The notes beneath the pieces were generated by a model. The model was not told where the DNA came from. It saw only the letters and a list, made by a program, of their open reading frames with translations, and made no database searches. A stretch of 64,000 nt of DNA from positions 199,392,001-199,456,000 of the forward strand of contig OZ024742.1 of assembly GCA_964016885.1 (NCBI GenBank), written 5' to 3'. How positions within the stretch are numbered: the first letter of the stretch is position 1; each line of letters opens with the position of its first letter. The DNA comes from Eledone cirrhosa (taxonomy: Eukaryota). Below are positions 1 through 59,317 of the stretch, piece after piece. The translations under genes were made by a program, and so were the position numbers.

Positions 1-286
1 GAAACTCCAGTCTGGAACCCCTATCCTGCTCAGAACATTGAGCTCCTGGAAACTGTTCTAAGACGTGCAATCAAGCGAATACCTTTCACCAGGCATCTAC
101 CATACTCTGAACGCTTGGTTCCCTGGGCATGTAAACTGTTTTGATAAACACCCACAAAATTATTAACCATCTTTCCAACATCAACCTGGAGCACCTTTTT
201 GAATTCCATGTGTCTAACACACGTGGTAGCCAAAAAAAAAAAAAAAAAATTATTTTGGATTAATGAAAATTATTGCGTAAAGTATG

Positions 287-380
287 TGCTCTAGGTGAGG
301 ATTGAAATCGCGACCTTCAGATTTCTCTGATTTCAGATTGCATTATGAGACTGACGTACTACCTACTGCAATACCAATGC
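287..380 (-). pseudogene. Degenerate elongator tRNA-Met(CAT) with 21-nt intron; representative copy, one per unit (94 nt; other + strand starts 1703, 3119, 4514, 5924, 7340, 8756, 10151, 11569, 12986, 14401, 15797, 17213, 18632, 20046, 21442, 22855, 24252, 25646, 27056, 28451, 29869, 31288, 32703, 34120)
   Basis: Reverse complement GCATTGGTATTGCAGTAGGTAGTACGTCAGTCTCATA[ATGCAATCTGAAATCAGAGAA]ATCTGAAGGTCGCGATTTCAATCCTCACCTAGAGCA matches the animal tRNA-Met(e) body. It has an acceptor mismatch, G10>T and B-box G53>T. Confidence 0.85.
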
Positions 381-403
381 AACTGAAATAAAATAAAATA
401 GAA

Positions 404-475
404 AGGGGACACCCGGGATTGAACCAGGGACCTCTCGATCTGCAGTCGAATGCTCTACCACTGAGCTATATCCCC
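404..475 (-). tRNA. tRNA-Cys(GCA) copy 1
   Basis: GGGGATATAGCTCAGTGGTAGAGCATTCGACTGCAGATCGAGAGGTCCCTGGTTCAATCCCGGGTGTCCCCT folds into a full cloverleaf with A/B boxes and a U73 discriminator, followed by TTTT terminators. Confidence 0.97.
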
Positions 476-559
476 AGGTGAATGAAGTGTTGTGGGAGTT
501 TTCGCTATATCTCATTCAAACGCCAACTCTCTTAAACAGCTACTGACACACACACACCA

Positions 560-1642
560 CACTGTCGTCCAGTCAGTCTTACTTGTTGCATTGCCAAACT
601 GACGGAATCCTGTGTTGTAGAAACACTCTGCAACTTCTGCAATTCTCACGGTCATATCCGTCTCTTGCAATTTGGATTTAGCTCCAGCTGCCGTGATCAA
701 CTCATCGAGTTTCTTGAAGGCATCACCCGGATCACTGATGGCGGCTCATGAGTGGATGGTGTTTTCCTTGACTTTGCTAAAGCTTTTAGTCTGTTCCACA
801 CAAAACACTTATGGTAAAACTCTCTGCAAAGGGGTGAAAAGATTATCTTTTTAACTGGTTGAAGTTCTTCATTCTCAGTTAAAAAGAGGTAGTCGCGGTG
901 CTCGGACAGCATGCTTCGCCCTTTGAGATGTCATCTGATGTACAGCAGAGATCTGTTGTTGGTCCCCTTTGGTTTGTTGTATATATTAATGTCATAGATG
1001 TCAACTTAAGAATGCTACAATGATGAAATACGCAGATGACATCAAGCTGTATCTCGAGATAAAAAGGGCAGATTCTGAACACTATAGATCTTTCTTGTAA
1101 CCAGACCTGGACACAATGCAGCAATGGATCACGGACTGGCAACTCAAGCTGGCTTTGGACACGTGTACCACCATGCATTTTGGGAGGAAAACCCAAAGTT
1201 CGCATACTCCCTCCACAACACTAATATCAAGAAATGTTCTTGTGAACGTGACCTGGGCATTATGTCGGCAGCGGTTTGCGTTGGACAAAGCACACCTTTA
1301 AAATTGTCAAGAAGGCCGAGAGCGTCTTGGCGTCACTCAGTAAGACCTTTGTCAGTCGCTCTCCAGCTATTTATTTAAAGCTGTATATAGCTATGATGCG
1401 GCCACATTTAGAATTTGAAACTCCAGTCTGGAACCCCTATCCTGCTCAGAACATTGAGCTCCTGGAAACTGTTCTAAGACGTGCAATCAAGCGAATACCT
1501 TTCACCAGGCATCTACCATACTCTGAACGCTTGGTTCCCTGGGCATGTAAACTGTTTTGATAAACACCCACAAAATTATTAACCATCTTTCCAACATCAA
1601 CCTGGAGCACCTTTTTGAATTCCATGTGTCTAACACACGTGG
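560..1642 (+). mobile_element. Decayed CR1/L2-type non-LTR retrotransposon RT fragment; representative copy, one per unit
   Basis: Frameshifted motifs RPVSLT..IAKL, QFGF, FLDFAKAF, S(G/D)VQQRSVVGP, YADDIKLY, ERDLGI, RPHLEF(A/E)TPVWNPY, LPYSERL. Contains stops and indels and breaks off before an A-tract. Confidence 0.93.
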
Positions 1643-1819
1643 TAGCCAAAAAAAAAAAAAAAAAATTATTTTGGATTAATGAAAATTATTGCGTAAAGTA
1701 TGTGCTCTAGGTGAGGATTGAAATCGCGACCTTCAGATTTCTCTGATTTCAGATTGCATTATGAGACTGACGTACTACCTACTGCAATACCAATGCAACT
1801 GAAATAAAATAAAATAGAA

Positions 1820-1891
1820 AGGGGACACCCGGGATTGAACCAGGGACCTCTCGATCTGCAGTCGAATGCTCTACCACTGAGCTATATCCCC
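1820..1891 (-). tRNA. tRNA-Cys(GCA) copy 2
   Basis: Same sequence as copy 1. Confidence 0.96.
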
Positions 1892-3235
1892 AGGTGAATG
1901 AAGTGTTGTGGGAGTTTTCGCTATATCTCATTCAAACGCCAACTCTCTTAAACAGCTACTGACACACACACACCACACTGTCGTCCAGTCAGTCTTACTT
2001 GTTGCATTGCCAAACTGACGGAATCCTGTGTTGTAGAAACACTCTGCAACTTCTGCAATTCTCACGGTCATATCCGTCTCTTGCAATTTGGATTTAGCTC
2101 CAGCTGCCGTGATCAACTCATCGAGTTTCTTGAAGGCATCACCCGGATCACTGATGGCGGCTCATGAGTGGATGGTGTTTTCCTTGACTTTGCTAAAGCT
2201 TTTAGTCTGTTCCACACAAAACACTTATGGTAAAACTCTCTGCAAAGGGGTGAAAAGATTATCTTTTTAACTGGTTGAAGTTCTTCATTCTCAGTTAAAA
2301 AGAGGTAGTCGCGGTGCTCGGACAGCATGCTTCGCCCTTTGAGATGTCATCTGATGTACAGCAGAGATCTGTTGTTGGTCCCCTTTGGTTTGTTGTATAT
2401 ATTAATGTCATAGATGTCAACTTAAGAATGCTACAATGATGAAATACGCAGATGACATCAAGCTGTATCTCGAGATAAAAAGGGCAGATTCTGAACACTA
2501 TAGATCTTTCTTGTAACCAGACCTGGACACAATGCAGCAATGGATCACGGACTGGCAACTCAAGCTGGCTTTGGACACGTGTACCACCATGCATTTTGGG
2601 AGGAAAACCCAAAGTTCGCATACTCCCTCCACAACACTAATATCAAGAAATGTTCTTGTGAACGTGACCTGGGCATTATGTCGGCAGCGGTTTGCGTTGG
2701 ACAAAGCACACCTTTAAAATTGTCAAGAAGGCCGAGAGCGTCTTGGCGTCACTCAGTAAGACCTTTGTCAGTCGCTCTCCAGCTATTTATTTAAAGCTGT
2801 ATATAGCTATGATGCGGCCACATTTAGAATTTGAAACTCCAGTCTGGAACCCCTATCCTGCTCAGAACATTGAGCTCCTGGAAACTGTTCTAAGACGTGC
2901 AATCAAGCGAATACCTTTCACCAGGCATCTACCATACTCTGAACGCTTGGTTCCCTGGGCATGTAAACTGTTTTGATAAACACCCACAAAATTATTAACC
3001 ATCTTTCCAACATCAACCTGGAGCACCTTTTTGAATTCCATGTGTCTAACACACGTGGTAGCCAAAAAAAAAAAAAAAAAATTATTTTGGATTAATGAAA
3101 ATTATTGCGTAAAGTATGTGCTCTAGGTGAGGATTGAAATCGCGACCTTCAGATTTCTCTGATTTCAGATTGCATTATGAGACTGACGTACTACCTACTG
3201 CAATACCAATGCAACTGAAATAAAATAAAATAGAA

Positions 3236-3307
3236 AGGGGACACCCGGGATTGAACCAGGGACCTCTCGATCTGCAGTCGAATGCTCTACCACTGAGCTA
3301 TATCCCC
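3236..3307 (-). tRNA. tRNA-Cys(GCA) copy 3
   Basis: Same sequence as copy 1. Confidence 0.96.
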
Positions 3308-4630
3308 AGGCGAATGAATTATTGTGGAAGTTTGCACTATATCTCATTCAAACGCCAACTCTCTTAAACAGCTACTGACACACACACACCACACTGTGGT
3401 CTAGTCAGTCTTACTTGCTGCATTGCCAATCTGACGGAATCCTGTGTTATAGAAACACTCTGCAACTTCTGCAATTCTCACAGCCATATACGTCTCTTGC
3501 AATTATGATTTAACTCCTGCTGTTGTGATCAACTCATCGAGTTTCTTGAAGGCATCACCCGGATCACTGATGGCGGCTCATGAGTGGATGTTTTTTTCCT
3601 TGACCTTGCCAAAGCTTTTAATTCTGTTCCACACAAAAATAATTATGGTAATACTCTCTGCAAAGGGGTGAAGAGATGATCTTTTTAACTGGTTGAAGTT
3701 CTTCTTTCTCAGTTAAAAAGAGGCAGTCGCGGTGCTAGGACAGCATGCTTCACCCTATGAGATGTCATCTGGTGTACAGCAGAGATCTGTTGTTGGTCCA
3801 CTTTGGTTTGTTGTATATATTAATGACATCGATGTCAACTTCCTGAATGCTACAATGATGAAATACGCAAATGACATCAAGCTGTATCTTGAGATAAAAA
3901 GGGCAGAACCTGAACACTATAGATCTTTCCTGTAATCAGACCTGGACACAATGCAGCAATGGATCACGGACTGACAACTCAAGCTGGCTGTGGACAAGTG
4001 TACCACCATGCATTTTGGGAGGAAAACCCAACGTTCGCATACTCCCTTCACAACACTAATATCGAGAAGTGTTCTTGTGAACGTGACCTGGGCATTACTG
4101 TCGGCAGCGGTTGGCGTTAGACAAAGCACTCCTCTAAAACTGTCAACAAGGCCGAGAGTGTGTTGGCGTCACTCAGTAAGACCTTTGTCAGTCTCTCTCC
4201 AGCTATTTATTTAAAGCTGTATATAGCTATGATGCGGCCGCACTTAGAATTTGCAACACCAGTCAGGAACCCCTATCCTGCTCAGTACATTGACCTCCTG
4301 GAAACTGTTCTAAGACGTGCAATCAAGCGAACACCCTCCATCAGGCATCTACCATACTCTGAACGCTTGGTTCCCTGGGCATATCAACTGACTTGATAAA
4401 CACCCACAAATTTATTAACCATCTTTCCAACATCAACCTGGAGCACCTTTTTGAGGTAGCCAAAAAAAAAAAAAGATTATTTTGGACTAATGAAAATTAT
4501 TGCGTAAAGTATGTGCTCTAGGTGAGGATTGAAATCACGACCTTCAGATTTCTCTGATTTCAGATTGTATTATGAGACTGACGTACTGCCTACTGCAATA
4601 CCAATGCAACTGAAATAAAATAAAATAGAA

Positions 4631-4702
4631 AGGGGACACCCGGGATTGAACCAGGGACCTCTCGATCTGCAGTCGAATGCTCTACCACTGAGCTATATCC
4701 CC
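4631..4702 (-). tRNA. tRNA-Cys(GCA) copy 4
   Basis: Same sequence as copy 1. Confidence 0.96.
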
Positions 4703-6040
4703 AGGTGAATGAAGTGTTGTGGGAGTTTTCGCTATATCTCATTCAAACGCCAACTCTCTTAAACAGCTACTGACACACACACACCACACTGTCGTCCAGT
4801 CAGTCTTACTTGTTGCATTGCCAAACTGACGGAATCCTGTGTTGTAGAAACACTCTGCAACTTCTGCAATTCTCACGGTCATATCCGTCTCTTGCAATTT
4901 GGATTTAGCTCCAGCTGCCGTGATCAACTCATCGAGTTTCTTGAAGGCATCACCCGGATCACTGATGGCGGCTCATGAGTGGATGGTGTTTTCCTTGACT
5001 TTGCTAAAGCTTTTAGTCTGTTCCACACAAAACACTTATGGTAAAACTCTCTGCAAAGGGGTGAAAAGATTATCTTTTTAACTGGTTGAAGTTCTTCATT
5101 CTCAGTTAAAAAGAGGTAGTCGCGGTGCTCGGACAGCATGCTTCGCCCTTTGAGATGTCATCTGATGTACAGCAGAGATCTGTTGTTGGTCCCCTTTGGT
5201 TTGTTGTATATATTAATGTCATAGATGTCAACTTAAGAATGCTACAATGATGAAATACGCAGATGACATCAAGCTGTATCTCGAGATAAAAAGGGCAGAT
5301 TCTGAACACTATAGATCTTTCTTGTAACCAGACCTGGACACAATGCAGCAATGGATCACGGACTGGCAACTCAAGCTGGCTTTGGACACGTGTACCACCA
5401 TGCATTTTGGGAGGAAAACCCAAAGTTCGCATACTCCCTCCACAACACTAATATCAAGAAATGTTCTTGTGAACGTGACCTGGGCATTATGTCGGCAGCG
5501 GTTTGCGTTGGACAAAGCACACCTTTAAAATTGTCAAGAAGGCCGAGAGCGTCTTGGCGTCACTCAGTAAGACCTTTGTCAGTCGCTCTCCAGCTATTTA
5601 TTTAAAGCTGTATATAGCTATGATGCGGCCACATTTAGAATTTGAAACTCCAGTCTGGAACCCCTATCCTGCTCAGAACATTGAGCTCCTGGAAACTGTT
5701 CTAAGACGTGCAATCAAGCGAATACCTTTCACCAGGCATCTACCATACTCTGAACGCTTGGTTCCCTGGGCATGTAAACTGTTTTGATAAACACCCACAA
5801 AATTATTAACCATCTTTCCAACCTGGAGCACCTTTTTGAATTCCATGTGTCTAACACACGTGGTAGCCAAAAAAAAAAAAAAAAAATTATTTTGGATTAA
5901 TGAAAATTATTGCGTAAAGTATGTGCTCTAGGTGAGGATTGAAATCGCGACCTTCAGATTTCTCTGATTTCAGATTGCATTATGAGACTGACGTACTACC
6001 TACTGCAATACCAATGCAACTGAAATAAAATAAAATAGAA

Positions 6041-6112
6041 AGGGGACACCCGGGATTGAACCAGGGACCTCTCGATCTGCAGTCGAATGCTCTACCACTG
6101 AGCTATATCCCC
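6041..6112 (-). tRNA. tRNA-Cys(GCA) copy 5
   Basis: Same sequence as copy 1. Confidence 0.96.
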
Positions 6113-7456
6113 AGGTGAATGAAGTGTTGTGGGAGTTTTCGCTATATCTCATTCAAACGCCAACTCTCTTAAACAGCTACTGACACACACACACCACACT
6201 GTCGTCCAGTCAGTCTTACTTGTTGCATTGCCAAACTGACGGAATCCTGTGTTGTAGAAACACTCTGCAACTTCTGCAATTCTCACGGTCATATCCGTCT
6301 CTTGCAATTTGGATTTAGCTCCAGCTGCCGTGATCAACTCATCGAGTTTCTTGAAGGCATCACCCGGATCACTGATGGCGGCTCATGAGTGGATGGTGTT
6401 TTCCTTGACTTTGCTAAAGCTTTTAGTCTGTTCCACACAAAACACTTATGGTAAAACTCTCTGCAAAGGGGTGAAAAGATTATCTTTTTAACTGGTTGAA
6501 GTTCTTCATTCTCAGTTAAAAAGAGGTAGTCGCGGTGCTCGGACAGCATGCTTCGCCCTTTGAGATGTCATCTGATGTACAGCAGAGATCTGTTGTTGGT
6601 CCCCTTTGGTTTGTTGTATATATTAATGTCATAGATGTCAACTTAAGAATGCTACAATGATGAAATACGCAGATGACATCAAGCTGTATCTCGAGATAAA
6701 AAGGGCAGATTCTGAACACTATAGATCTTTCTTGTAACCAGACCTGGACACAATGCAGCAATGGATCACGGACTGGCAACTCAAGCTGGCTTTGGACACG
6801 TGTACCACCATGCATTTTGGGAGGAAAACCCAAAGTTCGCATACTCCCTCCACAACACTAATATCAAGAAATGTTCTTGTGAACGTGACCTGGGCATTAT
6901 GTCGGCAGCGGTTTGCGTTGGACAAAGCACACCTTTAAAATTGTCAAGAAGGCCGAGAGCGTCTTGGCGTCACTCAGTAAGACCTTTGTCAGTCGCTCTC
7001 CAGCTATTTATTTAAAGCTGTATATAGCTATGATGCGGCCACATTTAGAATTTGAAACTCCAGTCTGGAACCCCTATCCTGCTCAGAACATTGAGCTCCT
7101 GGAAACTGTTCTAAGACGTGCAATCAAGCGAATACCTTTCACCAGGCATCTACCATACTCTGAACGCTTGGTTCCCTGGGCATGTAAACTGTTTTGATAA
7201 ACACCCACAAAATTATTAACCATCTTTCCAACATCAACCTGGAGCACCTTTTTGAATTCCATGTGTCTAACACACGTGGTAGCCAAAAAAAAAAAAAAAA
7301 AATTATTTTGGATTAATGAAAATTATTGCGTAAAGTATGTGCTCTAGGTGAGGATTGAAATCGCGACCTTCAGATTTCTCTGATTTCAGATTGCATTATG
7401 AGACTGACGTACTACCTACTGCAATACCAATGCAACTGAAATAAAATAAAATAGAA

Positions 7457-7528
7457 AGGGGACACCCGGGATTGAACCAGGGACCTCTCGATCTGCAGTC
7501 GAATGCTCTACCACTGAGCTATATCCCC
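7457..7528 (-). tRNA. tRNA-Cys(GCA) copy 6
   Basis: Same sequence as copy 1. Confidence 0.96.
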
Positions 7529-8872
7529 AGGTGAATGAAGTGTTGTGGGAGTTTTCGCTATATCTCATTCAAACGCCAACTCTCTTAAACAGCTACTGAC
7601 ACACACACACCACACTGTCGTCCAGTCAGTCTTACTTGTTGCATTGCCAAACTGACGGAATCCTGTGTTGTAGAAACACTCTGCAACTTCTGCAATTCTC
7701 ACGGTCATATCCGTCTCTTGCAATTTGGATTTAGCTCCAGCTGCCGTGATCAACTCATCGAGTTTCTTGAAGGCATCACCCGGATCACTGATGGCGGCTC
7801 ATGAGTGGATGGTGTTTTCCTTGACTTTGCTAAAGCTTTTAGTCTGTTCCACACAAAACACTTATGGTAAAACTCTCTGCAAAGGGGTGAAAAGATTATC
7901 TTTTTAACTGGTTGAAGTTCTTCATTCTCAGTTAAAAAGAGGTAGTCGCGGTGCTCGGACAGCATGCTTCGCCCTTTGAGATGTCATCTGATGTACAGCA
8001 GAGATCTGTTGTTGGTCCCCTTTGGTTTGTTGTATATATTAATGTCATAGATGTCAACTTAAGAATGCTACAATGATGAAATACGCAGATGACATCAAGC
8101 TGTATCTCGAGATAAAAAGGGCAGATTCTGAACACTATAGATCTTTCTTGTAACCAGACCTGGACACAATGCAGCAATGGATCACGGACTGGCAACTCAA
8201 GCTGGCTTTGGACACGTGTACCACCATGCATTTTGGGAGGAAAACCCAAAGTTCGCATACTCCCTCCACAACACTAATATCAAGAAATGTTCTTGTGAAC
8301 GTGACCTGGGCATTATGTCGGCAGCGGTTTGCGTTGGACAAAGCACACCTTTAAAATTGTCAAGAAGGCCGAGAGCGTCTTGGCGTCACTCAGTAAGACC
8401 TTTGTCAGTCGCTCTCCAGCTATTTATTTAAAGCTGTATATAGCTATGATGCGGCCACATTTAGAATTTGAAACTCCAGTCTGGAACCCCTATCCTGCTC
8501 AGAACATTGAGCTCCTGGAAACTGTTCTAAGACGTGCAATCAAGCGAATACCTTTCACCAGGCATCTACCATACTCTGAACGCTTGGTTCCCTGGGCATG
8601 TAAACTGTTTTGATAAACACCCACAAAATTATTAACCATCTTTCCAACATCAACCTGGAGCACCTTTTTGAATTCCATGTGTCTAACACACGTGGTAGCC
8701 AAAAAAAAAAAAAAAAAATTATTTTGGATTAATGAAAATTATTGCGTAAAGTATGTGCTCTAGGTGAGGATTGAAATCGCGACCTTCAGATTTCTCTGAT
8801 TTCAGATTGCATTATGAGACTGACGTACTACCTACTGCAATACCAATGCAACTGAAATAAAATAAAATAGAA

Positions 8873-8944
8873 AGGGGACACCCGGGATTGAACCAGGGAC
8901 CTCTCGATCTGCAGTCGAATGCTCTACCACTGAGCTATATCCCC
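8873..8944 (-). tRNA. tRNA-Cys(GCA) copy 7
   Basis: Same sequence as copy 1. Confidence 0.96.
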
Positions 8945-10267: not shown

Positions 10268-10339
10268 AGGGGACACCCGGGATTGAACCAGGGACCTCTC
10301 GATCTGCAGTCGAATGCTCTACCACTGAGCTATATCCCC
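10268..10339 (-). tRNA. tRNA-Cys(GCA) copy 8
   Basis: Same sequence as copy 1. Confidence 0.96.
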
Positions 10340-11685: not shown

Positions 11686-11757
11686 AGGGGACACCCGGGA
11701 TTGAACCAGGGACCTCTCGATCTGCAGTCGAATGCTCTACCACTGAGCTATATCCCC
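11686..11757 (-). tRNA. tRNA-Cys(GCA) copy 9
   Basis: Same sequence as copy 1. Confidence 0.96.
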
Positions 11758-15913: not shown

Positions 15914-15985
15914 AGAGGACACCCGGGATTGAACCAGGGACCTCTCGATCTGCAGTCGAATGCTCTACCACTGAGCTATATCCCC
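15914..15985 (-). tRNA. tRNA-Cys(GCA) copy 12, acceptor-stem variant (G2.U71)
   Basis: One substitution at 15916. Confidence 0.9.
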
Positions 15986-17329
15986 AGGTGAATGAAGTGT
16001 TGTGGGAGTTTTCGCTATATCTCATTCAAACGCCAACTCTCTTAAACAGCTACTGACACACACACACCACACTGTCGTCCAGTCAGTCTTACTTGCTGCA
16101 TTGCCAAACTGACGGAATCCTGTGTTGTAGAAACACTCTGCAACTTCTGCAATTCTCACGGTCATATCCGTCTCTTGCAATTTGGATTTAGCTCCAGCTG
16201 CCGTGATCAACTCATCGAGTTTCTTGAAGGCATCACCCGGATCACTGATGGCGGCTCATGAGTGGATGGTGTTTTCCTTGACTTTGCTAAAGCTTTTAGT
16301 CTGTTCCACACAAAACACTTATGGTAAAACTCTCTGCAAAGGGGTGAAAAGATTATCTTTTTAACTGGTTGAAGTTCTTCATTCTCAGTTAAAAAGAGGT
16401 AGTCGCGGTGCTCGGACAGCATGCTTCGCCCTTTGAGATGTCATCTGATGTACAGCAGAGATCTGTTGTTGGTCCCCTTTGGTTTGTTGTATATATTAAT
16501 GTCATAGATGTCAACTTAAGAATGCTACAATGATGAAATACGCAGATGACATCAAGCTGTATCTCGAGATAAAAAGGGCAGATTCTGAACACTATAGATC
16601 TTTCTTGTAACCAGACCTGGACACAATGCAGCAATGGATCACGGACTGGCAACTCAAGCTGGCTTTGGACACGTGTACCACCATGCATTTTGGGAGGAAA
16701 ACCCAAAGTTCGCATACTCCCTCCACAACACTAATATCAAGAAATGTTCTTGTGAACGTGACCTGGGCATTATGTCGGCAGCGGTTTGCGTTGGACAAAG
16801 CACACCTTTAAAATTGTCAAGAAGGCCGAGAGCGTCTTGGCGTCACTCAGTAAGACCTTTGTCAGTCGCTCTCCAGCTATTTATTTAAAGCTGTATATAG
16901 CTATGATGCGGCCACATTTAGAATTTGAAACTCCAGTCTGGAACCCCTATCCTGCTCAGAACATTGAGCTCCTGGAAACTGTTCTAAGACGTGCAATCAA
17001 GCGAATACCTTTCACCAGGCATCAACCATACTCTGAACGCTTGGTTCCCTGGGCATGTAAACTGTTTTGATAAACACCCACAAAATTATTAACCATCTTT
17101 CCAACATCAACCTGGAGCACCTTTTTGAATTCCATGTGTCTAACACACGTGGTAGCCAAAAAAAAAAAAAAAAAATTATTTTGGATTAATGAAAATTATT
17201 GCGTAAAGTATGTGCTCTAGGTGAGGATTGAAATCGCGACCTTCAGATTTCTCTGATTTCAGATTGCATTATGAGACTGACGTACTACCTACTGCAATAC
17301 CAATGCAACTGAAATAAAATAAAATAGAA

Positions 17330-17401
17330 AGGGGACACACGGGATTGAACCAGGGACCTCTCGATCTGCAGTCGAATGCTCTACCACTGAGCTATATCCC
17401 C
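17330..17401 (-). tRNA. tRNA-Cys(GCA) copy 13, T-stem mismatch variant
   Basis: One substitution at 17339. Confidence 0.88.
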
Positions 17402-18748
17402 AGGCGAATGAATTATTGTGGAAGTTTGCACTATATCTCATTCAAACGCCAACTCTCTTAAACAGCTACTGACACACACACACCACACTGTCGTCTAGTC
17501 AGTCTTACTTGCTGCATTGCCAATCTGACGGAATCCTGTGTTATAGAAACACTCTGCAACTTCTGCAATTCTCACAGCCATATACGTCTCTTGCAAATAT
17601 GATTTAACTCCTGCTGCTGTGATCAACTCATCGAGTTTCTTGAAGGCATCACCCGGATCACTGATGGCGGCTCATGAGTGGATGTTTTTTTCCTTGACCT
17701 TGCTAAAGCTTTTAATTCTGTTCCACACAAAAATAATTATGGTAAAACTCTCTGAAAAAATGGGTGAAGAGATGATCTTTTTAACTGGTTGAAGTTCTTC
17801 TTTCTCAGTTAAAAAGAGGCAGTCGCGGTGCTAGGACAGCATGCTTCACCCTATGAGATGTCATCTGGTGTACAGCAGAGATCTGTTGTTGGTCCACTTT
17901 GGTTTGTTGTATATATTAATGACATCGATGTCAACTTCCTGAATGCTACAATGATGAAATACGCAGATGACATCAAGCTGTATCTTGAGATAAAAAGGGC
18001 AGAACCTGAACACTATAGATCTTTCCTGTAATCAGACCTGGACACAATGCAGCAATGGATCACGGACTGACAACTCAAGCTGGCTGTGGACAAGTGTACC
18101 ACCATGCATTTTGGGAGGAAAACCCAACGTTCGCATACTCCCTCCACAACACTAATATCAAGAAGTGTTCTTGTGAATGTGACCTGGGCATTACTGTCGG
18201 CAGCGGTTGGCGTTAGACAAAGCACTCCTCTAAAACTGTCAAGAAGGCCGAGAGTGTGTTGGCGTCACTCAGTAAGACCTTTGTCAGTCGCTCTCCAGCT
18301 ATTTATTTAAAGCTGTATATAGCTATGATGCGGCCACACTTAGAATTTGCAACACCAGTCTGGAACCCCTATCCTGCTCAGAACATTGACCTCCTGGAAA
18401 CTGTTCTAAGACGTGCAATCAAGCGAACACCCTCCATCAGGCATCTACCATACTCTGAACGCTTGGTTCCCTGGGCATATCAACTGACTTGATAAACACC
18501 CACAAATTTATTAACCATCTTTCCAACATCAACCTGGAGCACCTTTTTGAATTCCATGTGTCTAACACACGTGGTAGCCAAAAAAAAAAAAAGATTATTT
18601 TGGACTAATGAAAATTATTGCGTAAAGTATGTGCTCTAGGTGAGGATTGAAATCACGACCTTCAGATTTCTCTGATTTCAGATTGTATTATGAGACTGAC
18701 GTACTGCCTACTGCAATACCAATGCAACTGAAATAAAATAAAATAGAA

Positions 18749-18820
18749 AGGGGACACCCGGGATTGAACCAGGAACCTCTCGATCTGCAGTCGAATGCTC
18801 TACCACTGAGCTATATCCCC
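18749..18820 (-). tRNA. tRNA-Cys(GCA) copy 14, C48>T variant
   Basis: One substitution at 18774. Confidence 0.92.
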
Positions 18821-20162
18821 AGGTGAATGAAGTGTTGTGGGAGTTTTCGCTATATCTCATTCAAACGCCAACTCTCTTAAACAGCTACTGACACACACAC
18901 ACCACACTGTCGTCCAGTCAGTCTGACTTGCTGCATTGCCAAACTGACGGAATCCTGTGTTATAGAAACACTCTGCAACTTCTGCAATTCTCACAGCCAT
19001 ATACGTCTCTTGCAATTTGGATTTAAGTCCAGCTGCTGTGATCAACTCATCGAGTTTCTTGAAGGCATCACCCGGATCACTGATGGCGGCTCATGAGTGG
19101 ATGGTGTTTTCCTTGACTTTACTAAAGCTTTTAATTCTGTTCCACACAAAACACTTATGGTAAAACTCTCTGCAAAGGGGTGAAGAGATGATCTTTTTAA
19201 CTGGTTGAAGTTCTTCATTCTCAGTTAAAACAAGGTAGTCGCGGTGCTAGGACAGCATGCTTCGCCCTATGAGATGTCATCTGGTGTACAGCAGAGATCT
19301 GTTGTTGGTTCCCTTTGGTTTGTTGTATATATTAATGACATCGATGTCAACTTCAAGAATGCTACAATGATGTAATACGCAGATGACATCAAGTTGTATC
19401 TTGAGATAAAAAGGGTAGAACCTGAACACAATAGATGTTTCCTGTAATCAGACCTGGACAGAATGCAGCAATGGATCACGGACTGGCAACTCAAGCTGGC
19501 TGTGGACAAGTGTACCACCATGCATTTTGGGAGGAAAACCCAAAGTTCGCATACTCCCTCCACAACACTAATATCAAGAAATGTTCCTTGTGAACGTGAC
19601 CTGGGCATTATGTCGGCAGCGGTTTGCGTTGGACAAAGCACACCTCTAAAATTGTCAAGAAGGCCGAGAGCGTCTTGGCGTCACTCAGTAAGACCTTTGT
19701 CAGTCGCTCTCCAGCTATTTATTTAAAGCTGTATATAGCTATGATGCGGCCACACTTAGAATTTGCAACTCCAGTCTGGAACCCCTATCCTGCTCAGAAC
19801 ATTGAGCTCCTGGAAACTGTTCTAAGACGTGCAATCAAGCGAATACCTTTCACCAGGCATCTACCATACTCTGAACGCTTGGTTCCCTGGGCTTGTAAAC
19901 TGTCTTGATAAACACCCACAAAATTATTAACCATCTTTCCAACATCAACCTGGAGCACCTTTTTGAATTCCATGTATCTAACACACGTGGTAGCCAAAAA
20001 AAAAAAAATTATTTTGGATTAATGAAAATTATTGCGTAAAGTATGTGCTCTAGGTGAGGATTGAAATCGCGACCTTCAGATTTCTCTGATTTCAGATTGT
20101 ATTATGAGACTGACGTACTGCCTACTGCAATACCAATGCAACTGAAATAAAATAAAATAGAA

Positions 20163-20234
20163 AGGGGACACCCGGGATTGAACCAGGGACCTCTCGATCT
20201 GCAGTCGAATGCTCTACCAGTGAGCTATATCCCC
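20163..20234 (-). tRNA. tRNA-Cys(GCA) copy 15, D-loop G15>C variant
   Basis: One substitution at 20220. Confidence 0.88.
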
Positions 20235-22971: not shown

Positions 22972-23043
22972 AGGGGACACCCGGGATTGAACCAGGGACC
23001 TCTCGATCTGCAGTCGAATGCTCTACCACTGAGCTATATCCCC
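22972..23043 (-). tRNA. tRNA-Cys(GCA) copy 17
   Basis: Same sequence as copy 1. Confidence 0.96.
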
Positions 23044-24368: not shown

Positions 24369-24440
24369 AGGGGACACCCGGGATTGAACCAGGGACCTCT
24401 CGATCTGCAGTCGAATGCTCTACCACTGAGCTATATCCCC
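24369..24440 (-). tRNA. tRNA-Cys(GCA) copy 18
   Basis: Same sequence as copy 1. Confidence 0.96.
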
Positions 24441-25762: not shown

Positions 25763-25834
25763 AGGGGACACCCGGGATTGAACCAGGGACCTCTCGATCT
25801 GCAGTCGAATGCTCTACCACTGAGCTATATCCCC
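25763..25834 (-). tRNA. tRNA-Cys(GCA) copy 19
   Basis: Same sequence as copy 1. Confidence 0.96.
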
Positions 25835-27172
25835 AGGTGAATGAAGTGTTGTGGGAGTTTTCGCTATATCTCATTCAAACGCCAACTCTCTTAAACAGCT
25901 ACTGACACACACACACCACACTGTCGTCCAGTCAGTCTTACTTGCTGCATTGCCAAACTGACGGAATCCTGTGTTGTAGAAACACTCTGCAGCTTCTGCA
26001 ATTCTCACGGTCATATCCGTCTCTTGCAATTTGGATTTAGCTCCAGCTGCCGTGATCAACTCATCGAGTTTCTTGAAGGCATCACCCGGATCACTGATGG
26101 CGGCTCATGAGTGGATGGTGTTTTCCTTGACTTTGCTAAAGCTTTTAGTCTGTTCCACACAAAACACTTATGGTAAAACTCTCTGCAAAGGGGTGAAAAG
26201 ATTATCTTTTTAACTGGTTGAAGTTCTTCATTCTCAGTTAAAAAGAGGTATTCGCGGTGCTCGGACAGCATGCTTCGCCCTTTGAGATGTCATCTGATGT
26301 ACAGCAGAGATCTGTTGTTGGTCCCCTTTGGTTTGTTGTATATATTAATGTCATAGATGTCAACTTAAGAATGCTACAATGATGAAATACGCAGATGACA
26401 TCAAGCTGTATCTCGAGATAAAAAGGGCAGATTCTGAACACTATAGATCTTTCTTGTAACCAGACCTGGACACAATGCAGCAATGGATCACGGACTGGCA
26501 ACTCAAGCTGGCTTTGGACACGTGTACCACCATGCATTTTGGGAGGAAAACCCAAAGTTCGCATACTCCCTCCACAACACTAATATCAAGAAATGTTCTT
26601 GTGAACGTGACCTGGGCATTATGTCGGCAGCGGTTTGCGTTGGTCAAAGCACACCTTTAAAATTGTCAAGAAGGCCGAGAGCGTCTTGGCGTCACTCAGT
26701 AAGACCTTTGTCAGTCGCTCTCCAGCTATTTATTTAAAGCTGTATATAGCTATGATGCGGCCACATTTAGAATTTGAAACTCCAGTCTGGAACCCCTATC
26801 CTGCTCAGAACATTGAGCTCCTGGAAACTGTTCTAAGACGTGCAATCAAGCGAATACCTTTCACCAGGCATCTACCATACTCTGAACGCTTGGTTCCCTG
26901 GGCATGTAAACTGTTTTGATAAACACCCACAAAATTATTAACCATCTTTCCAACATCAACCTGGAGCACCTTTTTGAATTCCATGTGTCTAACACACGTG
27001 GTAGCCAAAAAAAAAAAATTATTTTGGATTAATGAAAATTATTGCGTAAAGTATGTGCTCTATGTGAGGATTGAAATCGCGACCTTCAGATTTCTCTGAT
27101 TTCAGATTGCATTATGAGACTGACGTACTACCTACTGCAATACCAATGCAACTGAAATAAAATAAAATAGAA

Positions 27173-27244
27173 AGGGGACACCCGGGATTGAACCAGGGAC
27201 CTCTCGATCTGCAGTCGAATGCTCTACCACTGAGCTATATCCCC
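27173..27244 (-). tRNA. tRNA-Cys(GCA) copy 20
   Basis: Same sequence as copy 1. Confidence 0.96.
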
Positions 27245-28567
27245 AGGCGATTGAATTATTGTGGAAGTTTGCACTATATCTCATTCAAACGCCAACTCTC
27301 TTAAACAGCTACTGACACACACACACCACACTGTGGTCTAGTCAGTCTTACTTGCTGCATTGCCAATCTGACGGAATCCTGTGTTATAGAAACACTCTGC
27401 AACTTCTGCAATTCTCACAGCCATATACGTCTCTTGCAATTATGATTTAACTCCTGCTGTTGTGATCAACTCATCGAGTTTCTTGAAGGCATCACCCGGA
27501 TCACTGATCGCGGCTCATGAGTGGATGTTTTTTTCCTTGACCTTGCCAAAGCTTTTAATTCTGTTCCACACAAAAATAATTATGGTAATACTCTCTGCAA
27601 AGGGGTGAAGAGATGATCTTTTTAACTGGTTGAAGTTCTTCTTTCTCAGTTAAAAAGAGGCAGTCGCGGTGCTAGGACAGCATGCTTCACCCTATGAGAT
27701 GTCATCTGGTGTACAGCAGAGATCTGTTGTTGGTCCACTTTGGTTTGTTGTATATATTAATGACATCGATGTCAACTTCCTGAATGCTACAATGATGAAA
27801 TACGCAAATGACATCAAGCTGTATCTTGAGATAAAAAGGGCAGAACCTGAACACTATAGATCTTTCCTGTAATCAGACCTGGACACAATGCAGCAATGGA
27901 TCACGGACTGACAACTCAAGCTGGCTGTGGACAAGTGTACCACCATGCATTTTGGGAGGAAAACCCAACGTTCGCATACTCCCTTCACAACACTAATATC
28001 GAGAAGTGTTCTTGTGAACGTGACCTGGGCATTACTGTCGGCAGCGGTTGGCGTTAGACAAAGCACTCCTCTAAAACTGTCAAGAAGGCCGAGAGTGTGT
28101 TGGCGTCACTCAGTAAGACCTTTGTCAGTCTCTCTCCAGCTATTTATTTAAAGCTGTATATAGCTATGATGCGGCCGCACTTAGAATTTGCAACACCAGT
28201 ATGGAACCCCTATCCTGCTCAGTACATTGACCTCCTGGAAACTGTTCTAAGACGTGCAATCAAGCGAACACCCTCCATCAGGCATCTACCATACTCTGAA
28301 CGCTTGGTTCCCTGGGCATATCAACTGACTTGATAAACACCCACAAATTTATTAACCATCTTTCCAACATCAACCTGGAGCACCTTTTTGAGGTAGCCAA
28401 AAAAAAAAAAAGATTATTTTGGACTAATGAAAATTATTGCGTAAAGTATGTGCTCTAGGTGAGGATTGAAATCACGACCTTCAGATTTCTCTGATTTCAG
28501 ATTGTATTATGAGACTGACGTACTGCCTACTGCAATACCAATGCAACTGAAATAAAATAAAATAGAA

Positions 28568-28639
28568 AGGGGACACCCGGGATTGAACCAGGGACCTCTC
28601 GATCTGCAGTCGAATGCTCTACCACTGAGCTATATCCCC
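28568..28639 (-). tRNA. tRNA-Cys(GCA) copy 21
   Basis: Same sequence as copy 1. Confidence 0.96.
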
Positions 28640-29985
28640 AGGTGAATGAAATGTTGTGGGAGTTTTCGCTATATCTCATTCAAACGCCAACTCTCTTAAA
28701 CAGCTACTGACACACACACACCACACTGTCGTCCAGTCAGTCTTACTTGCTGCATTGCCAAACTGACGGAATCCTGTGTTGTAGAAACACTCTGCAACTT
28801 CTGCAATTCTCACGGTCATATCCGTCTCTTGCAATTTGGATTTAGCTCCAGCTGCCGTGATCAACTCATCGAGTTTCTTGAAGGCATCACCCGGATCACT
28901 GATGGCGGCTCATGAGTGGATGGTGTTTTCCTTGACTTTGCTAAAGCTTTTAGTCTGTTCCACACAAAACACTTATGGTAAAACTCTCTGCAAAGGGGTG
29001 AAAAGATTATCTTTTTAACTGGTTGAAGTTCTTCATTCTCAGTTAAAAAGAGGTAGTCGCGGTGCTCGGACAGCATGCTTCGCCCTTTGAGATGTCATCT
29101 GATGTACAGCAGAGATCTGTTGTTGGTTCCCTTTGGTTTGTTGTATATATTAATGTCATAGATGTCAACTTCAAGAATGGTACAATGATGAAATACGCAG
29201 ATGAGATCAAGCTGTATCTCGAGATAAAAAGGGCAGATTCTGAACACTATAGATCTTTCTTGTAACCAGACCTGGACACAATGCAGCAATGGATCACGGA
29301 CTGGCAACTCAAGCTGGCTTTGGACACGTGTACCACCATGCATTTTGGGAGGAAAACCCAAAGTTCGCATACTCCCTCCACAACACTAATATCAAGAAAT
29401 GTTCTTGTGAACGTGACCTGGGCTTTATGTCGGCAGCGGTTTGCGTTGGACAAAGCACACCTTTAAAATTGTCAAGAAGGCCGAGAGCGTCTTGGCGTCA
29501 CTCAGTAAGACCTTTGTCAGTCGCTCTCCAGCTATTTATTTAAAGCTGTATATAGCTATGATGCGGCCACATTTAGAATTTGAAACTCCAGTCTGGAACC
29601 CCTATCCTGCTCAGAACATTGAGCTCCTGGAAACTGTTCTAAGACGTGCAATCAAGCGAATACCTTTCACCAGGCATCTACCATACTCTGAACGCTTGGT
29701 TCCCTGGGTATGTAAACTGTTTTGATAAACACCCACAAAATTATTAACCATCTTTCCAACATCAACCTGGAGCACCTTTTTGAATTCCATGTGTCTAACA
29801 CACGTGGTAGCCAAAAAAAAAAAAAAAAAAATTATTTTGGATTAATGAAAATTATTGCGTAAAGTATGTGCTCTAGGTGAGGATTGAAATCGCGACCTTC
29901 AGATTTCTCTGATTTCAGATTGCATTATGAGACTGACGTACTACCTACTGCAATACCAATGCAACTGAAATAAAATAAAATAGAA

Positions 29986-30057
29986 AGGGGACACCCGGGA
30001 TTGAACCAGGGACCTCTCGATCTGCAGTCGAATGCTCTACCACTGAGCTATATCCCC
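29986..30057 (-). tRNA. tRNA-Cys(GCA) copy 22
   Basis: Same sequence as copy 1. Confidence 0.96.
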
Positions 30058-31404
30058 AGGCGAATGAATTATTGTGGAAGTTTTCACTATATCTCATTCA
30101 AACGCCAACTCTCTTAAACAGCTACTGACACACACACACCACACTGTCGTCTAGTCAGTCTTACTTGCTGCATTGCCAATCTGACGGAATCCTGTGTTAT
30201 AGAAACACTCTGCAACTTCTGCAATTCTCACAGCCATATACGTCTCTTGCAAATATGATTTAACTCCTGCTGCTGTGATCAACTCATCGAGTTTCTTGAA
30301 GGCATCACCCGGATCACTGATCGCGGCTCATGAGTGGATGTTTTTTTCCTTGACCTTGCTAAAGCTTTTAATTCTGTTCCACACAAAAATAATTATGGTA
30401 AAACTCTCTGAAAAAATGGGTGAAGAGATGATCTTTTTAACTGGTTGAAGTTCTTCTTTCTCAGTTAAAAAGAGGCAGTCGCGGTGCTAGGACAGCATGC
30501 TTCACCCTATGAGATGTCATCTGGTGTACAGCAGAGATCTGTTGTTGGTCCACTTTGGTTTGTTGTATATATTAATGACATCGATGTCAACTTCCTGAAT
30601 GCTACAATGATGAAATACGCAGATGACATCAAGCTGTATCTTGAGATAAAAAGGGCAGAACCTGAACACTATAGACCTTTCCTGTAATCAGACCTGGACA
30701 CAATGCAGCAATGGATCACGGACTGACAACTCAAGCTGGCTGTGGACAAGTGTACCACCATGCATTTTGGGAGGAAAACCCAACGTTCGCATACTCCCTC
30801 CACAACACTAATATCAAGAAGTGTTCTTGTGAATGTGACCTGGGCATTACTGTCGGCAGCGGTTGGCGTTAGACAAAGCACTCCTCTAAAACTGTCAAGA
30901 AGGCCGAGAGTGTGTTGGCGTCACTCAGTAAGACCTTTGTCAGTCGCTCTCCAGCTATTTATTTAAAGCTGTATATAGCTATGATGCGGCCACACTTAGA
31001 ATTTGCGACACCAGTCTGGAACCCCTATCCTGCTCAGAACATTGACCTCCTGGAAACTGTTCTAAGACGTGCAATCAAGCGAACACCCTCCATCAGGCAT
31101 CTACCATACTCTGAACGCTTGGTTCCCTGGGCATATCAACTGACTTGATAAACACCCACAAATTTATTAACCATCTTTCCAACATCAACCTGGAGCACCT
31201 TTTTGAATTCCATGTGTCTAACACACGTGGTAGCCAAAAAAAAAAAAAGATTATTTTGGACTAATGAAAATTATTGCGTAAAGTATGTGCTCTAGGTGAG
31301 GATTGAAATCACGACCTTCAGATTTCTCTGATTTCAGATTGTATTATGAGACTGACGTACTGCCTACTGCAATACCAATGCAAATGAAATAAAATAAAAT
31401 AGAA

Positions 31405-31476
31405 AGGGGACACCCGGGATTGAACCAGGGACCTCTCGATCTGCAGTCGAATGCTCTACCACTGAGCTATATCCCC
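31405..31476 (-). tRNA. tRNA-Cys(GCA) copy 23
   Basis: Same sequence as copy 1. Confidence 0.96.
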
Positions 31477-32819
31477 AGGTGAATGAAGTGTTGTGGGAGT
31501 TTTCGCTATATCTCATTCAAACGCCAACTCTCTTAAACAGCTACTGACACACACACACCACACTGTCGTCCAGTCAGTCTGACTTGCTGCATTGCCAAAC
31601 TGACGGAATCCTGTGTTATAGAAACACTCTGCAACTTCTGCAATTCTCACAGCCATATACGTCTCTTGCAATTTGGATTTAAGTCCAGCTGCTGTGATCA
31701 ACTCATCGAGTTTCTTGAAGGCATCACCCGGATCACTGATGGCGGCTCATGAGTGGATGGTGTTTTCCTTGACTTTACTAAAGCCTTTAATTCTGTTCCA
31801 CACAAAACACTTATGGTAAAACTCTCTGCAAAGGGGTGAAGAGATGATCTTTTTAACTGGTTGAAGTTCTTCATTCTCAGTTAAAACAAGGTAGTCGCGG
31901 TGCTAGGACAGCATGCTTCGCACTATGAGATGTCATCTGGTGTACAGCAGAGATCTGTTGTTGGTTCCCATTGGTTTGTTGTATATATTAATGACATCGA
32001 TGTCAACTTCAAGAATGCTACAATGATGTAATACGCAGATGACATCAAGCTGTATCTTGAGATAAAAAGGGTAGAACCTGAACACAATAGATGTTTCCTG
32101 TAATCAGACCTGGACAGAATGCAGCAATGGATCACGGACTGGCAACTCAAGCTGGCTGTGGACAAGTGTACCACCATGCATTTTGGGAGGAAAACCCAAA
32201 GATCGCATACTCCCTCCACAACACTAATATCAAGAAATGTTCTTGTGAACGTGACCTGGGCATTACTGTCGGCAGCGGTTGGCGTTAGACAAAGCACTCC
32301 TCTAAAACTGTCAAGAAGGCCGAGAGTGTGTTGGCGTCACTCAGTAAGACCTTTGTCAGTCTCTCTCCAGCTATTTATTTAAAGCTGTATATAGCTATGA
32401 TGCGGCCGCACTTAGAATTTGCAACACCAGTCTGGAACCCCTATCCTGCTCAGTACATTGACCTCCTGGAAACTGTTCTAAGACGTGCAATCAAGCGAAT
32501 ACCTTTCACCAGGCATCTACCATACTCTGAACGCTTGGTTCCCTGGGCTTGTAAACTGTCTTGATAAACACCCACAAAATTATTAACCATCTTTCCAACA
32601 TCAACCTGGAGCACCTTTTTGAATTCCATGTGTCTAACACACGTGGTAGCCAAAAAAAAAAAATATTATTTTGGATTAATGAAAATTATTGCGTAAAGTA
32701 TGTGCTCTAGGTGAGGATTGAAATCGCGACCTTCAGATTTCTCTGATTTCAGATTGTATTATGAGACTGACGTACTGCCTACTGCAATACCAATGCAACT
32801 GAAATAAAATAAAATAGAA

Positions 32820-32891
32820 AGGGGACACCCGGGATTGAACCAGGAACCTCTCGATCTGCAGTCGAATGCTCTACCACTGAGCTATATCCCC
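32820..32891 (-). tRNA. tRNA-Cys(GCA) copy 24, C48>T variant
   Basis: Same substitution as copy 14. Confidence 0.92.
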
Positions 32892-34119
32892 AGGCGAATG
32901 AATTATTGTGGAAATTTTCACTATATCTCATTCAAACGCCAACTCTCTTAAACAGCTACTGACACACACACACCACACTGTGGTCTAGTCAGTCTTACTT
33001 GCTGCATTGCCAATCTGACGGAATCCTGTGTTATAGAAACACTCTGCAACTTCTGCAATTCTCACAGCCATATACGTCTCTTGCAATTATGATTTAACTC
33101 CTGCTGCTGTGATCAACTCATCGAGTTTCTTGAAGGCATCACCCGGATCACGGATGGCGGCTCATGAGTGGATGGTGTTTTCCTTGACTTTACTAAAGCT
33201 TTTAATTCTGTTCCACACAAAACACTTATGGTAAAACTCTCTGCAAAGGGGTGAAGAGATGATCTTTTTAACTGGTTGAAGTTCTTCATTCTCAGTTAAA
33301 ACAAGGTAGTCGCGGCGCTAGGACAGCATGCTTCGCCCAATGAGATGTCATCTGGTGTACAGCAGAGATCTGTTGTTGGTCCCGTTTGGTTTGTTGTATA
33401 TATTAATGACATCGATGTCAACTTCAAGAATACTACAATGATGAAATACGCAGATGACATCAAGCTGTATCTTGAGATAACAAGGGCAGAACCTGAACAC
33501 TATAGATCTTTCCTGTAATCAGACCTGGACAGAATGCAGCAATGGATCACGGACTGGCTACTCAAGCTGGCTGTGGACAAGTGTACCACCATGCATTTTG
33601 GGAGGAATACCGAACGTTCGCGTACTCCCTCCACAACACTAATATCAAGAAGTGTTCTTGTGAATGTGACCTGGGTATTACTGTCGGCAGCGGTTTGCGT
33701 CGGACAAAGCACACCTCTAAAATTGTCAAGAAGGCCGAGAGTGTCCTGGCGTCACTCAGTAAGACCTTTGTCAGTCGCTCTCCAGCTATTTATTTAAAGC
33801 TGTATATAGCTATGATGCGACCACACTTAGAACTTGCAACACCAGTCTGGAACCCCTATCCTGCTCAGAACATTGATCTCCCGGAAACTGTTCTAAGACG
33901 TGCAATGAAGCGAATACCCTCCATCAGACATCTACCATACTCTGAACGCTTGGTTCTCTTGGAATGTCAACTGACTTAATAAACACCCACAAATTTATTA
34001 ACCATCTTTCCAACATCAACCTGGAGCACCTTTTTGAATTCCATGTGTCTAACACACGTGGTAGCCAAAAAAAAAAAAAAAATTATTTTGAATTATTGAA
34101 AATTATTGCGTAAAGTATG

Positions 34120-34213
34120 TGCTCTAGGTGAGGATTGAACTCACGACCTTCAGATTTCTCTGATTTCAGATTTGATCATGAGACTGACGTACTACCTACT
34201 GTACTACCAATGC
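34120..34213 (-). pseudogene. Terminal intron-containing tRNA-Met(CAT); best-preserved copy
   Basis: Intact B box (GAGTTCAATCC), paired D stem GTAC/GTAC and T stem GTGAG/CTCAC. Still has an acceptor A3.A70 mismatch, and G at position 37. Confidence 0.8.
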
Positions 34214-34236
34214 AACTGAAATAAAATAAAATAGAA

Positions 34237-34308
34237 AGGGGACACCCGGGATTGAACCAGGGACCTCTCGATCTGCAGTCGAATGCACTATCACTGAGCT
34301 ATATCCCC
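34237..34308 (-). tRNA. tRNA-Cys(GCA) copy 25, probably pseudogenised
   Basis: D arm reads GCTCAGTGATAGTGC: loss of the invariant GG plus a D-stem mismatch. Confidence 0.8.
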
Positions 34309-59279: not shown

Positions 59280-59317
59280 GTAAAATTAAGTCATTTATAA
59301 AATCTACAATAGATTAA

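What the first reader, a model, noticed from the sequence alone, without database searches (positions are those of the whole stretch)
1..34308. Satellite-like tRNA-Cys gene array with a dead LINE as spacer
Seen: at least 25 tandem ~1.4-kb units, each with a tRNA-Cys(GCA), an adjacent degenerate tRNA-Met and ~1.1 kb of decayed CR1/L2-type RT on the opposite strand. By eye about 19 of the Cys genes are identical, even between spacer types that differ at dozens of sites. Known: tandem tRNA arrays occur in animals and protists. Inference: selection acts on tRNA-Cys only while the Met gene and LINE hitch-hike, so this may be a dosage-amplified single-isoacceptor locus that repeat masking would hide as LINE. 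A link to demand from Cys-rich proteins such as C2H2 zinc fingers is speculation.
Basis: partly seen in the sequence, partly recalled or inferred. Interest (0 to 1): 0.75.

Follow-up and report, generated by a model that had tools for sequence, protein, structure and literature searches.

The report
Cysteine tRNA array with dead passengers
This is a real 44-unit tandem repeat holding about two-thirds of this animal's cysteine tRNA gene copies, each beside a broken methionine tRNA gene and a dead retrotransposon piece; it likely grew by ordinary unequal crossing-over with selection likely keeping the cysteine gene intact, like the arrays for other tRNAs in the same genome, and nothing points to a special cysteine demand.

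Summary
Observation confirmed and extended. The array has 44 units of about 1.4 kb (25 in the window, 19 to its left); 19 of 25 Cys genes in the window and 31 of 44 overall are identical. Short-read depth is 20-39 times single copy, so it is not an assembly artefact. Cys picks up rare variants at the spacer's rate (16/72 vs 189/1084 sites), but none has spread to 5 or more units (0/72 vs 91/1084, p=0.005), which fits purifying selection. The 20 bases upstream are three times more variable, as in active tRNA genes. The Met copy is a pseudogene, but its 21-nt insert is the normal intron of this genome's elongator Met genes. The LINE is a passenger caught by one duplication. The dosage-for-cysteine idea is not supported: motif counts are Cys 57, Trp 66, Met 66, His 45, Phe 28, and Trp, Met and His have their own arrays. 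Earlier notes of this scan reported such arrays (Met, Val, Pro, Thr) and the Met intron on other DNA. Verdict: new member of a known kind; no RNA data.

The parts
1..34308 (.). Window part of the tandem array: 25 of 44 units of 1.38-1.43 kb; the array begins 26.3 kb left of the window; alternating A/B unit types with mosaics
   Evidence: (distance lower at even lags)
404..475 (-). tRNA-Cys(GCA), representative of the 19 identical copies in the window (others start at 1820, 3236, 4631, 6041, 7457, 8873, 10268, 11686, 13103, 14518, 21559, 22972, 24369, 25763, 27173, 28568, 29986, 31405); all 21 stem pairs form
390..398 (-). Two T4 runs just 3' of Cys, likely the Pol III terminator (inferred)
   Evidence: sequence
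476..495 (-). Inner 5' flank (-1 to -20) of Cys, hypervariable across units, with three alleles at -14 and four at -12
506..545 (-). Low-diversity upstream block (-31 to -70), pi 0.010; possible promoter-proximal element (inferred, p about 0.02-0.08)
287..380 (-). Elongator tRNA-Met pseudogene, 9-12 changes from the intact gene in four units examined, broken acceptor, D and T pairs, G53T in the B box of internal units
323..343 (-). 21-nt intron at position 37/38 of the Met pseudogene, 2-5 changes from the intron of intact Met genes on contig C8
561..1641 (+). Dead LINE fragment (RT domain and C-terminal part of ORF2), about 85% identical to dispersed copies; repeated in every unit
1642..1664 (+). 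Unit junction: LINE cut off and joined to the short motif plus poly(A) that also stands at the unique left flank
15914..20234 (-). Four consecutive units whose Cys genes each carry one private change (15914, 17330, 18749, 20163)
34120..34213 (-). Terminal Met pseudogene, keeps G10 and G53, Rfam 47.4 bits
34237..34308 (-). Terminal tRNA-Cys with two changes (G18A, A22T), Rfam 55.3 bits
34394..35333 (+). Right-flank copy of the same LINE, internally deleted, running on to the element's 3' end: the likely parent of the spacer

Best explanation
This is a 44-unit tandem tRNA-Cys gene array that likely began with one 1.4-kb duplication of a Cys gene, its already decayed Met neighbour and most of an old LINE insertion, and likely grew by unequal crossing-over. 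Shown: the unit anatomy, the junction (the LINE is cut and joined to the left-flank motif in the units inspected, while the right flank keeps the LINE's 3' end), alternating and mosaic unit types, and the variant spectrum. Inferred: most Cys copies are transcribed by Pol III from their internal A/B boxes and end at the T run; new mutations hit Cys as often as the spacer, but units with a damaged Cys gene have not spread, so selection acts on the array's total output, not on each copy, and end units decay. The LINE and the Met pseudogene hitch-hike. Copy number is likely set mostly by drift, as for this genome's other tRNA arrays, not by cysteine demand.
For: 44 units, spacings and boundaries. 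Mosaic A/B map, with a switch between the Cys 5' flank and Met in units 20, 21, 24, 25. Cys alleles in 5 or more of 43 units: 0/72 vs LINE 91/1084, p=0.005; holds for thresholds 4-10 (p=0.003-0.03), for the window's 24 complete units at thresholds 2-8, and for distinct haplotypes; none of 12 non-overlapping 72-site LINE windows is at zero. Rare alleles equal: 16/72 vs 189/1084, p=0.34. Inner 5' flank 15 alleles in 20 sites vs 280 in 1084, p=4e-4, most alleles at -12/-14, the place that PMC6130373 reports for active tRNA genes (passages read). Met differs from the intact gene at 7 positions in all 44 units. Mutant Cys genes: 0 of 16 central units, 13 of 28 outer units. Depth 20-39 times single copy on the main Met-Cys contig in three runs of one sample. 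Other tRNA types are arrayed too.
Against: No RNA or Pol III data: the run search gave no RNA run of this organism. Variable sites overall are not fewer in Cys (p=0.47) and thresholds 1-3 are not significant for all 43 units; the threshold and the centre-versus-end split were chosen after seeing the data. Cys vs Met is not significant (p=0.13), and Met's 7/73 fixed changes are significant only against 0/72 (p=0.013), not against 1-3/72. The quiet zone extends over the 23-nt spacer and the first 19 nt of Met. The flank variants are not mainly C>T, and the 3' flank is not raised, unlike the published pattern. One individual only.
Confidence: 0.7

Rival explanations
1. Neutral macrosatellite: the array is silent or dispensable, and Cys looks uniform by chance or because exchanges between units concentrate in the Cys-spacer-Met block.
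For: Rare variants hit Cys at the spacer rate; one copy has 7 changes and 4 broken pairs. A recombinant class switches type within the Cys block. Met is also about half as variable as the LINE (pi 0.026 vs 0.045). 18 Cys motif hits lie outside the array and Phe does with 28.
Against: Common variants stand 4 nt upstream of Cys and resume 43 nt downstream, a sharp edge for a conversion tract; p=0.003-0.03 across thresholds 4-10; the 5' flank is hypervariable as in active genes; all stems and both promoter boxes of the majority Cys are intact while Met lost them.
Confidence: 0.2
2. Adaptive dosage amplification: the array was selected to raise tRNA-Cys supply for cysteine-rich proteins such as C2H2 zinc fingers.
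For: 39 of 57 Cys motif hits are in this array; without it Cys would have 18. Cys genes appear constrained.
Against: Trp, usually the rarest amino acid (recalled), has 66 hits and Met 66 outside this array; His 45; Phe 28, so number follows having an array, not demand. For the Arabidopsis Ser-Tyr-Tyr array the same dosage test was negative (PMC2886086 section 17). Codon use was not measured here.
Confidence: 0.07
3. Assembly artefact: a few real units were over-expanded.
For: Three sets of units are letter-identical (13=17, 19=23, 20=21=25); the runs used may be the assembly's own sample.
Against: 39 distinct haplotypes among 43 units, no N gaps, depth 20-39 times single copy on one contig and 35-70 times summed over the bin.
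Confidence: 0.03

Closest known systems
Arabidopsis chromosome 5 tRNA-Cys(GCA) cluster (PMC10701932; abstract and outline seen)
   Same: tRNA-Cys genes in tandem units, with a tRNA pseudogene and transposon remains in the cluster; variable unit number.
   Different: Four units of 0.4 kb with Helitron traces and a Cys pseudogene; here 44 units of 1.4 kb in an animal, with a LINE fragment and a Met pseudogene in every unit, holding most Cys genes.
Arabidopsis chromosome 1 tRNA-Ser/Tyr/Tyr array (PMC2886086; abstract and section 17 read)
   Same: Unequal crossing-over, concerted evolution, non-functional genes towards the ends, no support for dosage selection.
   Different: Three tRNA genes per unit; here one intact gene plus a dead one, and a LINE-derived spacer that serves as a neutral yardstick.
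Human 1q23.3 tRNA variable number tandem repeat (PMC4041453; abstract and outline seen)
   Same: Animal tRNA macrosatellite of similar unit number (9-43), tRNA genes conserved and spacer not.
   Different: 7.3-kb GC-rich unit with a conserved CTCF site; copy-number variation is shown there and untested here.
Transcription-associated mutagenesis at active tRNA genes (PMC6130373; passages read)
   Same: Raised variation in the 20 bases upstream, peak 12-15 nt upstream, conserved gene body.
   Different: There the 3' flank is raised too and C>T/G>A dominate; neither is seen here.
Other tRNA arrays of this genome: Met on C2, Trp on C4, His on C3
   Same: Tandem kb-scale units built around one tRNA type.
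   Different: No RT remnant was detected in the 20 kb each of Trp and Met array tested with two LINE proteins, so the LINE spacer is a local accident.

Membership tests
Tandem tRNA gene array (tDNA macrosatellite, homocluster) | Head-to-tail units each with a structurally intact tRNA gene | tested here: met
   44 of 44 units have a Cys gene called by ARAGORN, all with GCA; 40 of 44 have no broken stem pair
Tandem tRNA gene array (tDNA macrosatellite, homocluster) | Signs of unequal crossing-over and homogenisation (mosaic units, higher-order repeat, divergent ends) | tested here: met
   A/B alternation, mosaics, divergent terminal units
Tandem tRNA gene array (tDNA macrosatellite, homocluster) | tRNA gene more conserved than spacer | tested here: met
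   pi 0.014 vs 0.045; common variants 0/72 vs 91/1084, p=0.005; total variable sites not different
Tandem tRNA gene array (tDNA macrosatellite, homocluster) | Pol III transcription of array copies | not testable with these tools
   No RNA run of the organism offered; only the indirect 5'-flank signal
Tandem tRNA gene array (tDNA macrosatellite, homocluster) | Copy-number variation between individuals | tested here: inconclusive
   RAD-seq runs of two other samples have no reads on the tRNA part; depth data come from one sample
tRNA-derived SINE or SINE chain | Dispersed high-copy element with tRNA-like head and target-site duplications | tested here: not met
   Cys motif hits are confined to 5 places; the repeat unit includes 5' flank and an antisense LINE piece, so it was copied as DNA
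Active or domesticated LINE | Open ORF2 or constraint on the RT frame | tested here: not met
   Longest plus-strand stop-free frame 79-159 aa per unit; frameshifts; only residues 553-933 of a 972-aa relative covered
CR1/L2 group of LINEs | Placement in an RT tree with named clade members | not tested
   Best relative is an unnamed endonuclease-plus-RT ORF2; the CR1-like label rests on recalled motifs
Intron-containing elongator tRNA-Met | Insert between positions 37 and 38 shared by intact genes | tested here: met
   100 of 100 listed motif hits (103 in all) carry a 21-22-nt insert, none is intron-less; intact genes on C2, C5, C7, C8

The most novel reading that the evidence does not exclude
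Most of this animal's tRNA-Cys comes from one LINE-spaced macrosatellite whose size is held up by selection, and a single assembled array already shows both forces at work: Pol III transcription mutating the 5' flank and array-level selection stopping damaged Cys copies from spreading, with the LINE and the Met pseudogene as built-in neutral controls. The genome would then run its tRNA supply largely from single-type macrosatellites, with an elongator Met intron that a 2026 review treats as lost in animals.
Probability: 0.25. Interest if true: 0.5.

Novelty: new member of a known kind. Interest (0 to 1): 0.27.

Why it matters
It is an ordinary kind of locus, but an unusually clean one: every unit carries its own neutral control, so selection on a multicopy tRNA gene can be read from one assembly. 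If expression is confirmed, about two-thirds of this animal's tRNA-Cys genes sit in a unit that is about three-quarters LINE sequence, and tRNA gene number here would follow array history rather than amino-acid demand. The Met intron is the more surprising fact, and it is genome-wide, not special to this array.

Tried and rejected
Tandem Repeats Finder does not see the array (period limit 500). A first His motif found nothing; a second one worked. ARAGORN with a lowered threshold and long introns gave only spurious calls. A control on the C2 Met array gave an implausible comparison because my type sorting was unreliable; not used. Thermodynamic folding was uninformative (z from -0.5 to -1.4) and my Met range was one base off. 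A homologue search with a neighbouring RTE-type element gave no useful organism name; the organism was not identified here, and 'mollusc' comes from earlier AI notes only. PDB searches with two putative exons right of the array found nothing. The lone Cys copy on C8 matches the array's T arm, but it may derive from the array, so it is not a safe outgroup. Rejected: SINE chain, domesticated RT, LINE spacer as a general design (absent from the Trp and Met array stretches tested), Met insert as decay. Paper searches listed no study of nuclear tRNA arrays or Met introns in cephalopods or molluscs; only the top 10-25 titles of each were seen, subscription papers are not held, and no supplements were read, so genome-paper supplements may hold tRNA counts.
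Full report
Observation. ARAGORN finds 25 tRNA-Cys(GCA) genes on the minus strand between 404 and 34308, spaced 1394-1419 bp apart; 19 of 25 are identical. Rfam scores them at 55-67 bits and also picks up the last Met-like gene at 47 bits. The window lies at G000:C3:199392001-199456000 of a 3.0-Gb genome. Fetching 80 kb to the left shows 19 more units: 44 in all over about 61 kb, without N gaps. 31 of 44 Cys genes are identical and all 44 keep GCA. Contigs from three runs of one sample give the main Met-Cys contig a depth of 176-210 against 5-10 for unique flank, a ratio of 20-39 (35-70 when all contigs in the bin are summed). The tool warns that such depth is not a copy number and the sample may be the assembly's own, but it argues against an artefact.

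Anatomy. On the minus strand each unit reads: about 85 nt of unique 5' flank, Cys (72 nt), a 23-nt T-rich spacer with two T4 runs, a 94-nt Met-like gene, about 40 nt and a poly(T) run; the rest, about 1.08 kb, is a LINE fragment on the plus strand. The fragment matches residues 553-933 of an unnamed 972-aa endonuclease-plus-RT protein at 33-47% identity with frameshifts, hits Pfam RVT_1 weakly, has no stop-free frame over 159 aa in any of 43 units and is about 85% identical to dispersed copies. The label CR1-like rests on recalled motifs. In the internal units inspected the LINE is cut at the same point and joined to a short motif plus poly(A) that also stands at the unique left flank, while the right flank carries the same LINE, internally deleted, on to its 3' end. 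So the LINE likely inserted once, about 86 nt upstream of Cys, and one tandem duplication captured most of it. Two unit types (86 differences in 1389 sites) alternate, distances are lower at even lags, and many units are mosaics, as unequal crossing-over would give.

The Met gene. It differs from the intact elongator tRNA-Met at 7 positions in all 44 units and at 9-12 in the four units examined, with broken acceptor, D and T pairs and loss of G53 in internal units: a pseudogene that was decayed before amplification. Its 21-nt insert is not decay. A genome-wide motif search gave 103 hits; all 100 listed carry a 21-22-nt insert after position 37, 37 in this array and 63 elsewhere, including intact genes on C2, C5, C7 and C8. 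A 2026 review suggests that this intron may be an ancestral feature lost in animals (PMC13578239, passages read). Two earlier notes of this scan had reported the intron; I had seen it before those look-ups.

Selection. Over 43 complete units, pi is 0.014 in Cys, 0.026 in Met and 0.045 in the LINE. The number of variable sites is not lower in Cys (14/72 vs 257/1084, p=0.47), and rare alleles occur at the LINE rate (16/72 vs 189/1084, p=0.34). No Cys allele is shared by 5 or more units, against 91 of 1084 LINE sites (p=0.005); the 12 non-overlapping 72-site LINE windows hold 1-8 such alleles. The result holds for thresholds 4-10, for the window's units alone at thresholds 2-8 and for distinct haplotypes, and fails for thresholds 1-3 on all units. 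The threshold was chosen after seeing the data; the partial left-end unit, eight edge columns and an (AC)n tract were left out. Met is intermediate and differs significantly from neither the LINE (p=0.23) nor Cys (p=0.13). Common variants sit 4 nt upstream of Cys and resume 43 nt downstream. Mutant Cys copies lie in 13 of the 28 outer units and 0 of 16 central ones, like the Arabidopsis array, where non-functional genes lie towards the ends (PMC2886086 section 17). My reading: single copies are nearly free to decay, but damaged copies have not been amplified.

Activity. No RNA run was on offer. Indirectly, the 20 bases upstream of Cys hold 15 alleles against 280 in 1084 LINE sites (p=4e-4), with most alleles at -12 and -14. 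PMC6130373 reports a peak of variation 12-15 nt upstream of active tRNA genes (passages read). Against this, the 3' flank is not raised and C>T changes do not dominate.

Dosage. A relaxed Cys motif finds 57 places: 39 in this array, 15 in a looser cluster on C13, one each on C8, C27 and C998. The array isoform differs from the main C13 isoform at three T-arm positions, each state also seen in Cys genes elsewhere. Equivalent recalled motifs give Trp 66 (49 in one array on C4), His 45 (23 in one cluster on C3, 17 of them at 2.2-kb spacing), Phe 28 and elongator Met 66 outside this array (58 on C2). These are exact-motif counts, not tRNAscan counts. Cys is mid-range, and number follows whether a gene was caught in an array. 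The zinc-finger link has no support; codon use was not measured. The Trp and Met array stretches tested show no RT remnant, so a LINE spacer is not a design feature.

Comparison and verdict. The closest cases are the Arabidopsis tRNA-Cys cluster with transposon remains and a pseudogene (PMC10701932, abstract and outline), the Arabidopsis Ser-Tyr-Tyr array and the human 1q23.3 tRNA repeat (PMC4041453, abstract and outline). PMC4536317 and PMC4090602 were read as passages only and did not settle the distribution of Met introns in animals. Six paper searches listed nothing on mollusc or cephalopod nuclear tRNA arrays. Earlier scan notes describe Met, Val, Pro and Thr arrays in this genome; none covers this locus. 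It is a new member of a known kind: real, probably functional for Cys, with passengers; interest 0.27.

Noticed in passing
G000 C2:102.03-102.14 Mb, C5, C7, C8 (L028-L064): All 100 listed elongator tRNA-Met motif hits carry a 21-22-nt intron at 37/38; no intron-less copy was listed. 58 lie in one cluster on C2 with a 2.4-kb two-gene repeat.
   Followed up: partly
G000 C4:353.39-353.49 Mb (L067, L068): tRNA-Trp tandem array, 49 of 66 genome-wide motif hits.
   Followed up: partly
G000 C3:277.556-277.595 Mb: tRNA-His array with a 2.24-kb period, 17 hits.
   Followed up: no
L024:5157-5228 and 6437-6509; L020:2910-2981: Cys-type tRNA bodies in the C13 cluster with changed anticodons (GCT, ACA) and other damage; likely pseudogenes.
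   Followed up: partly
L027:4678-4749 (C8): A lone Cys copy with the array's T-arm variant, a 3-nt duplication at its 3' end, directly followed by a tRNA-like SINE head; possibly a retrocopy of an array transcript.
   Followed up: partly
window 45168-47696, minus strand: Nearly intact RTE-type LINE ORF (one stop between two long frames) ending in C2H2 zinc fingers; about 50% identical to unnamed proteins with RT and zinc-finger domains.
   Followed up: partly
window 49535-53414: Penelope-like element by recalled motifs: RT and GIY-YIG-like frames at 50347-52437 (minus) between two near-identical repeats of about 0.9 kb in the same orientation.
   Followed up: no
window 39263-39375 and about 59168-59317, plus strand: Two putative coiled-coil exons 5 kb and 25 kb right of the array; recalled resemblance to dynein docking-complex proteins was not confirmed by PDB searches.
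   Followed up: partly
window 40674-41236: 48-bp tandem repeat, 11.7 copies, built from a piece of a common dispersed element.
   Followed up: no
window 35334-35500 and the array's left boundary: The same very abundant SINE flanks both ends of the array in opposite orientations; at the left end it interrupts the Met 3' flank.
   Followed up: partly
Met 3' flank in each unit, about window 261-284, minus strand: About 20 nt resembling the extreme 3' end of the spacer's LINE family, in the tRNA orientation (seen by eye); a possible second tiny insertion.
   Followed up: no
window 62197-62254, minus strand: Weak partial Rfam tRNA hit (31 bits), likely a SINE head.
   Followed up: no
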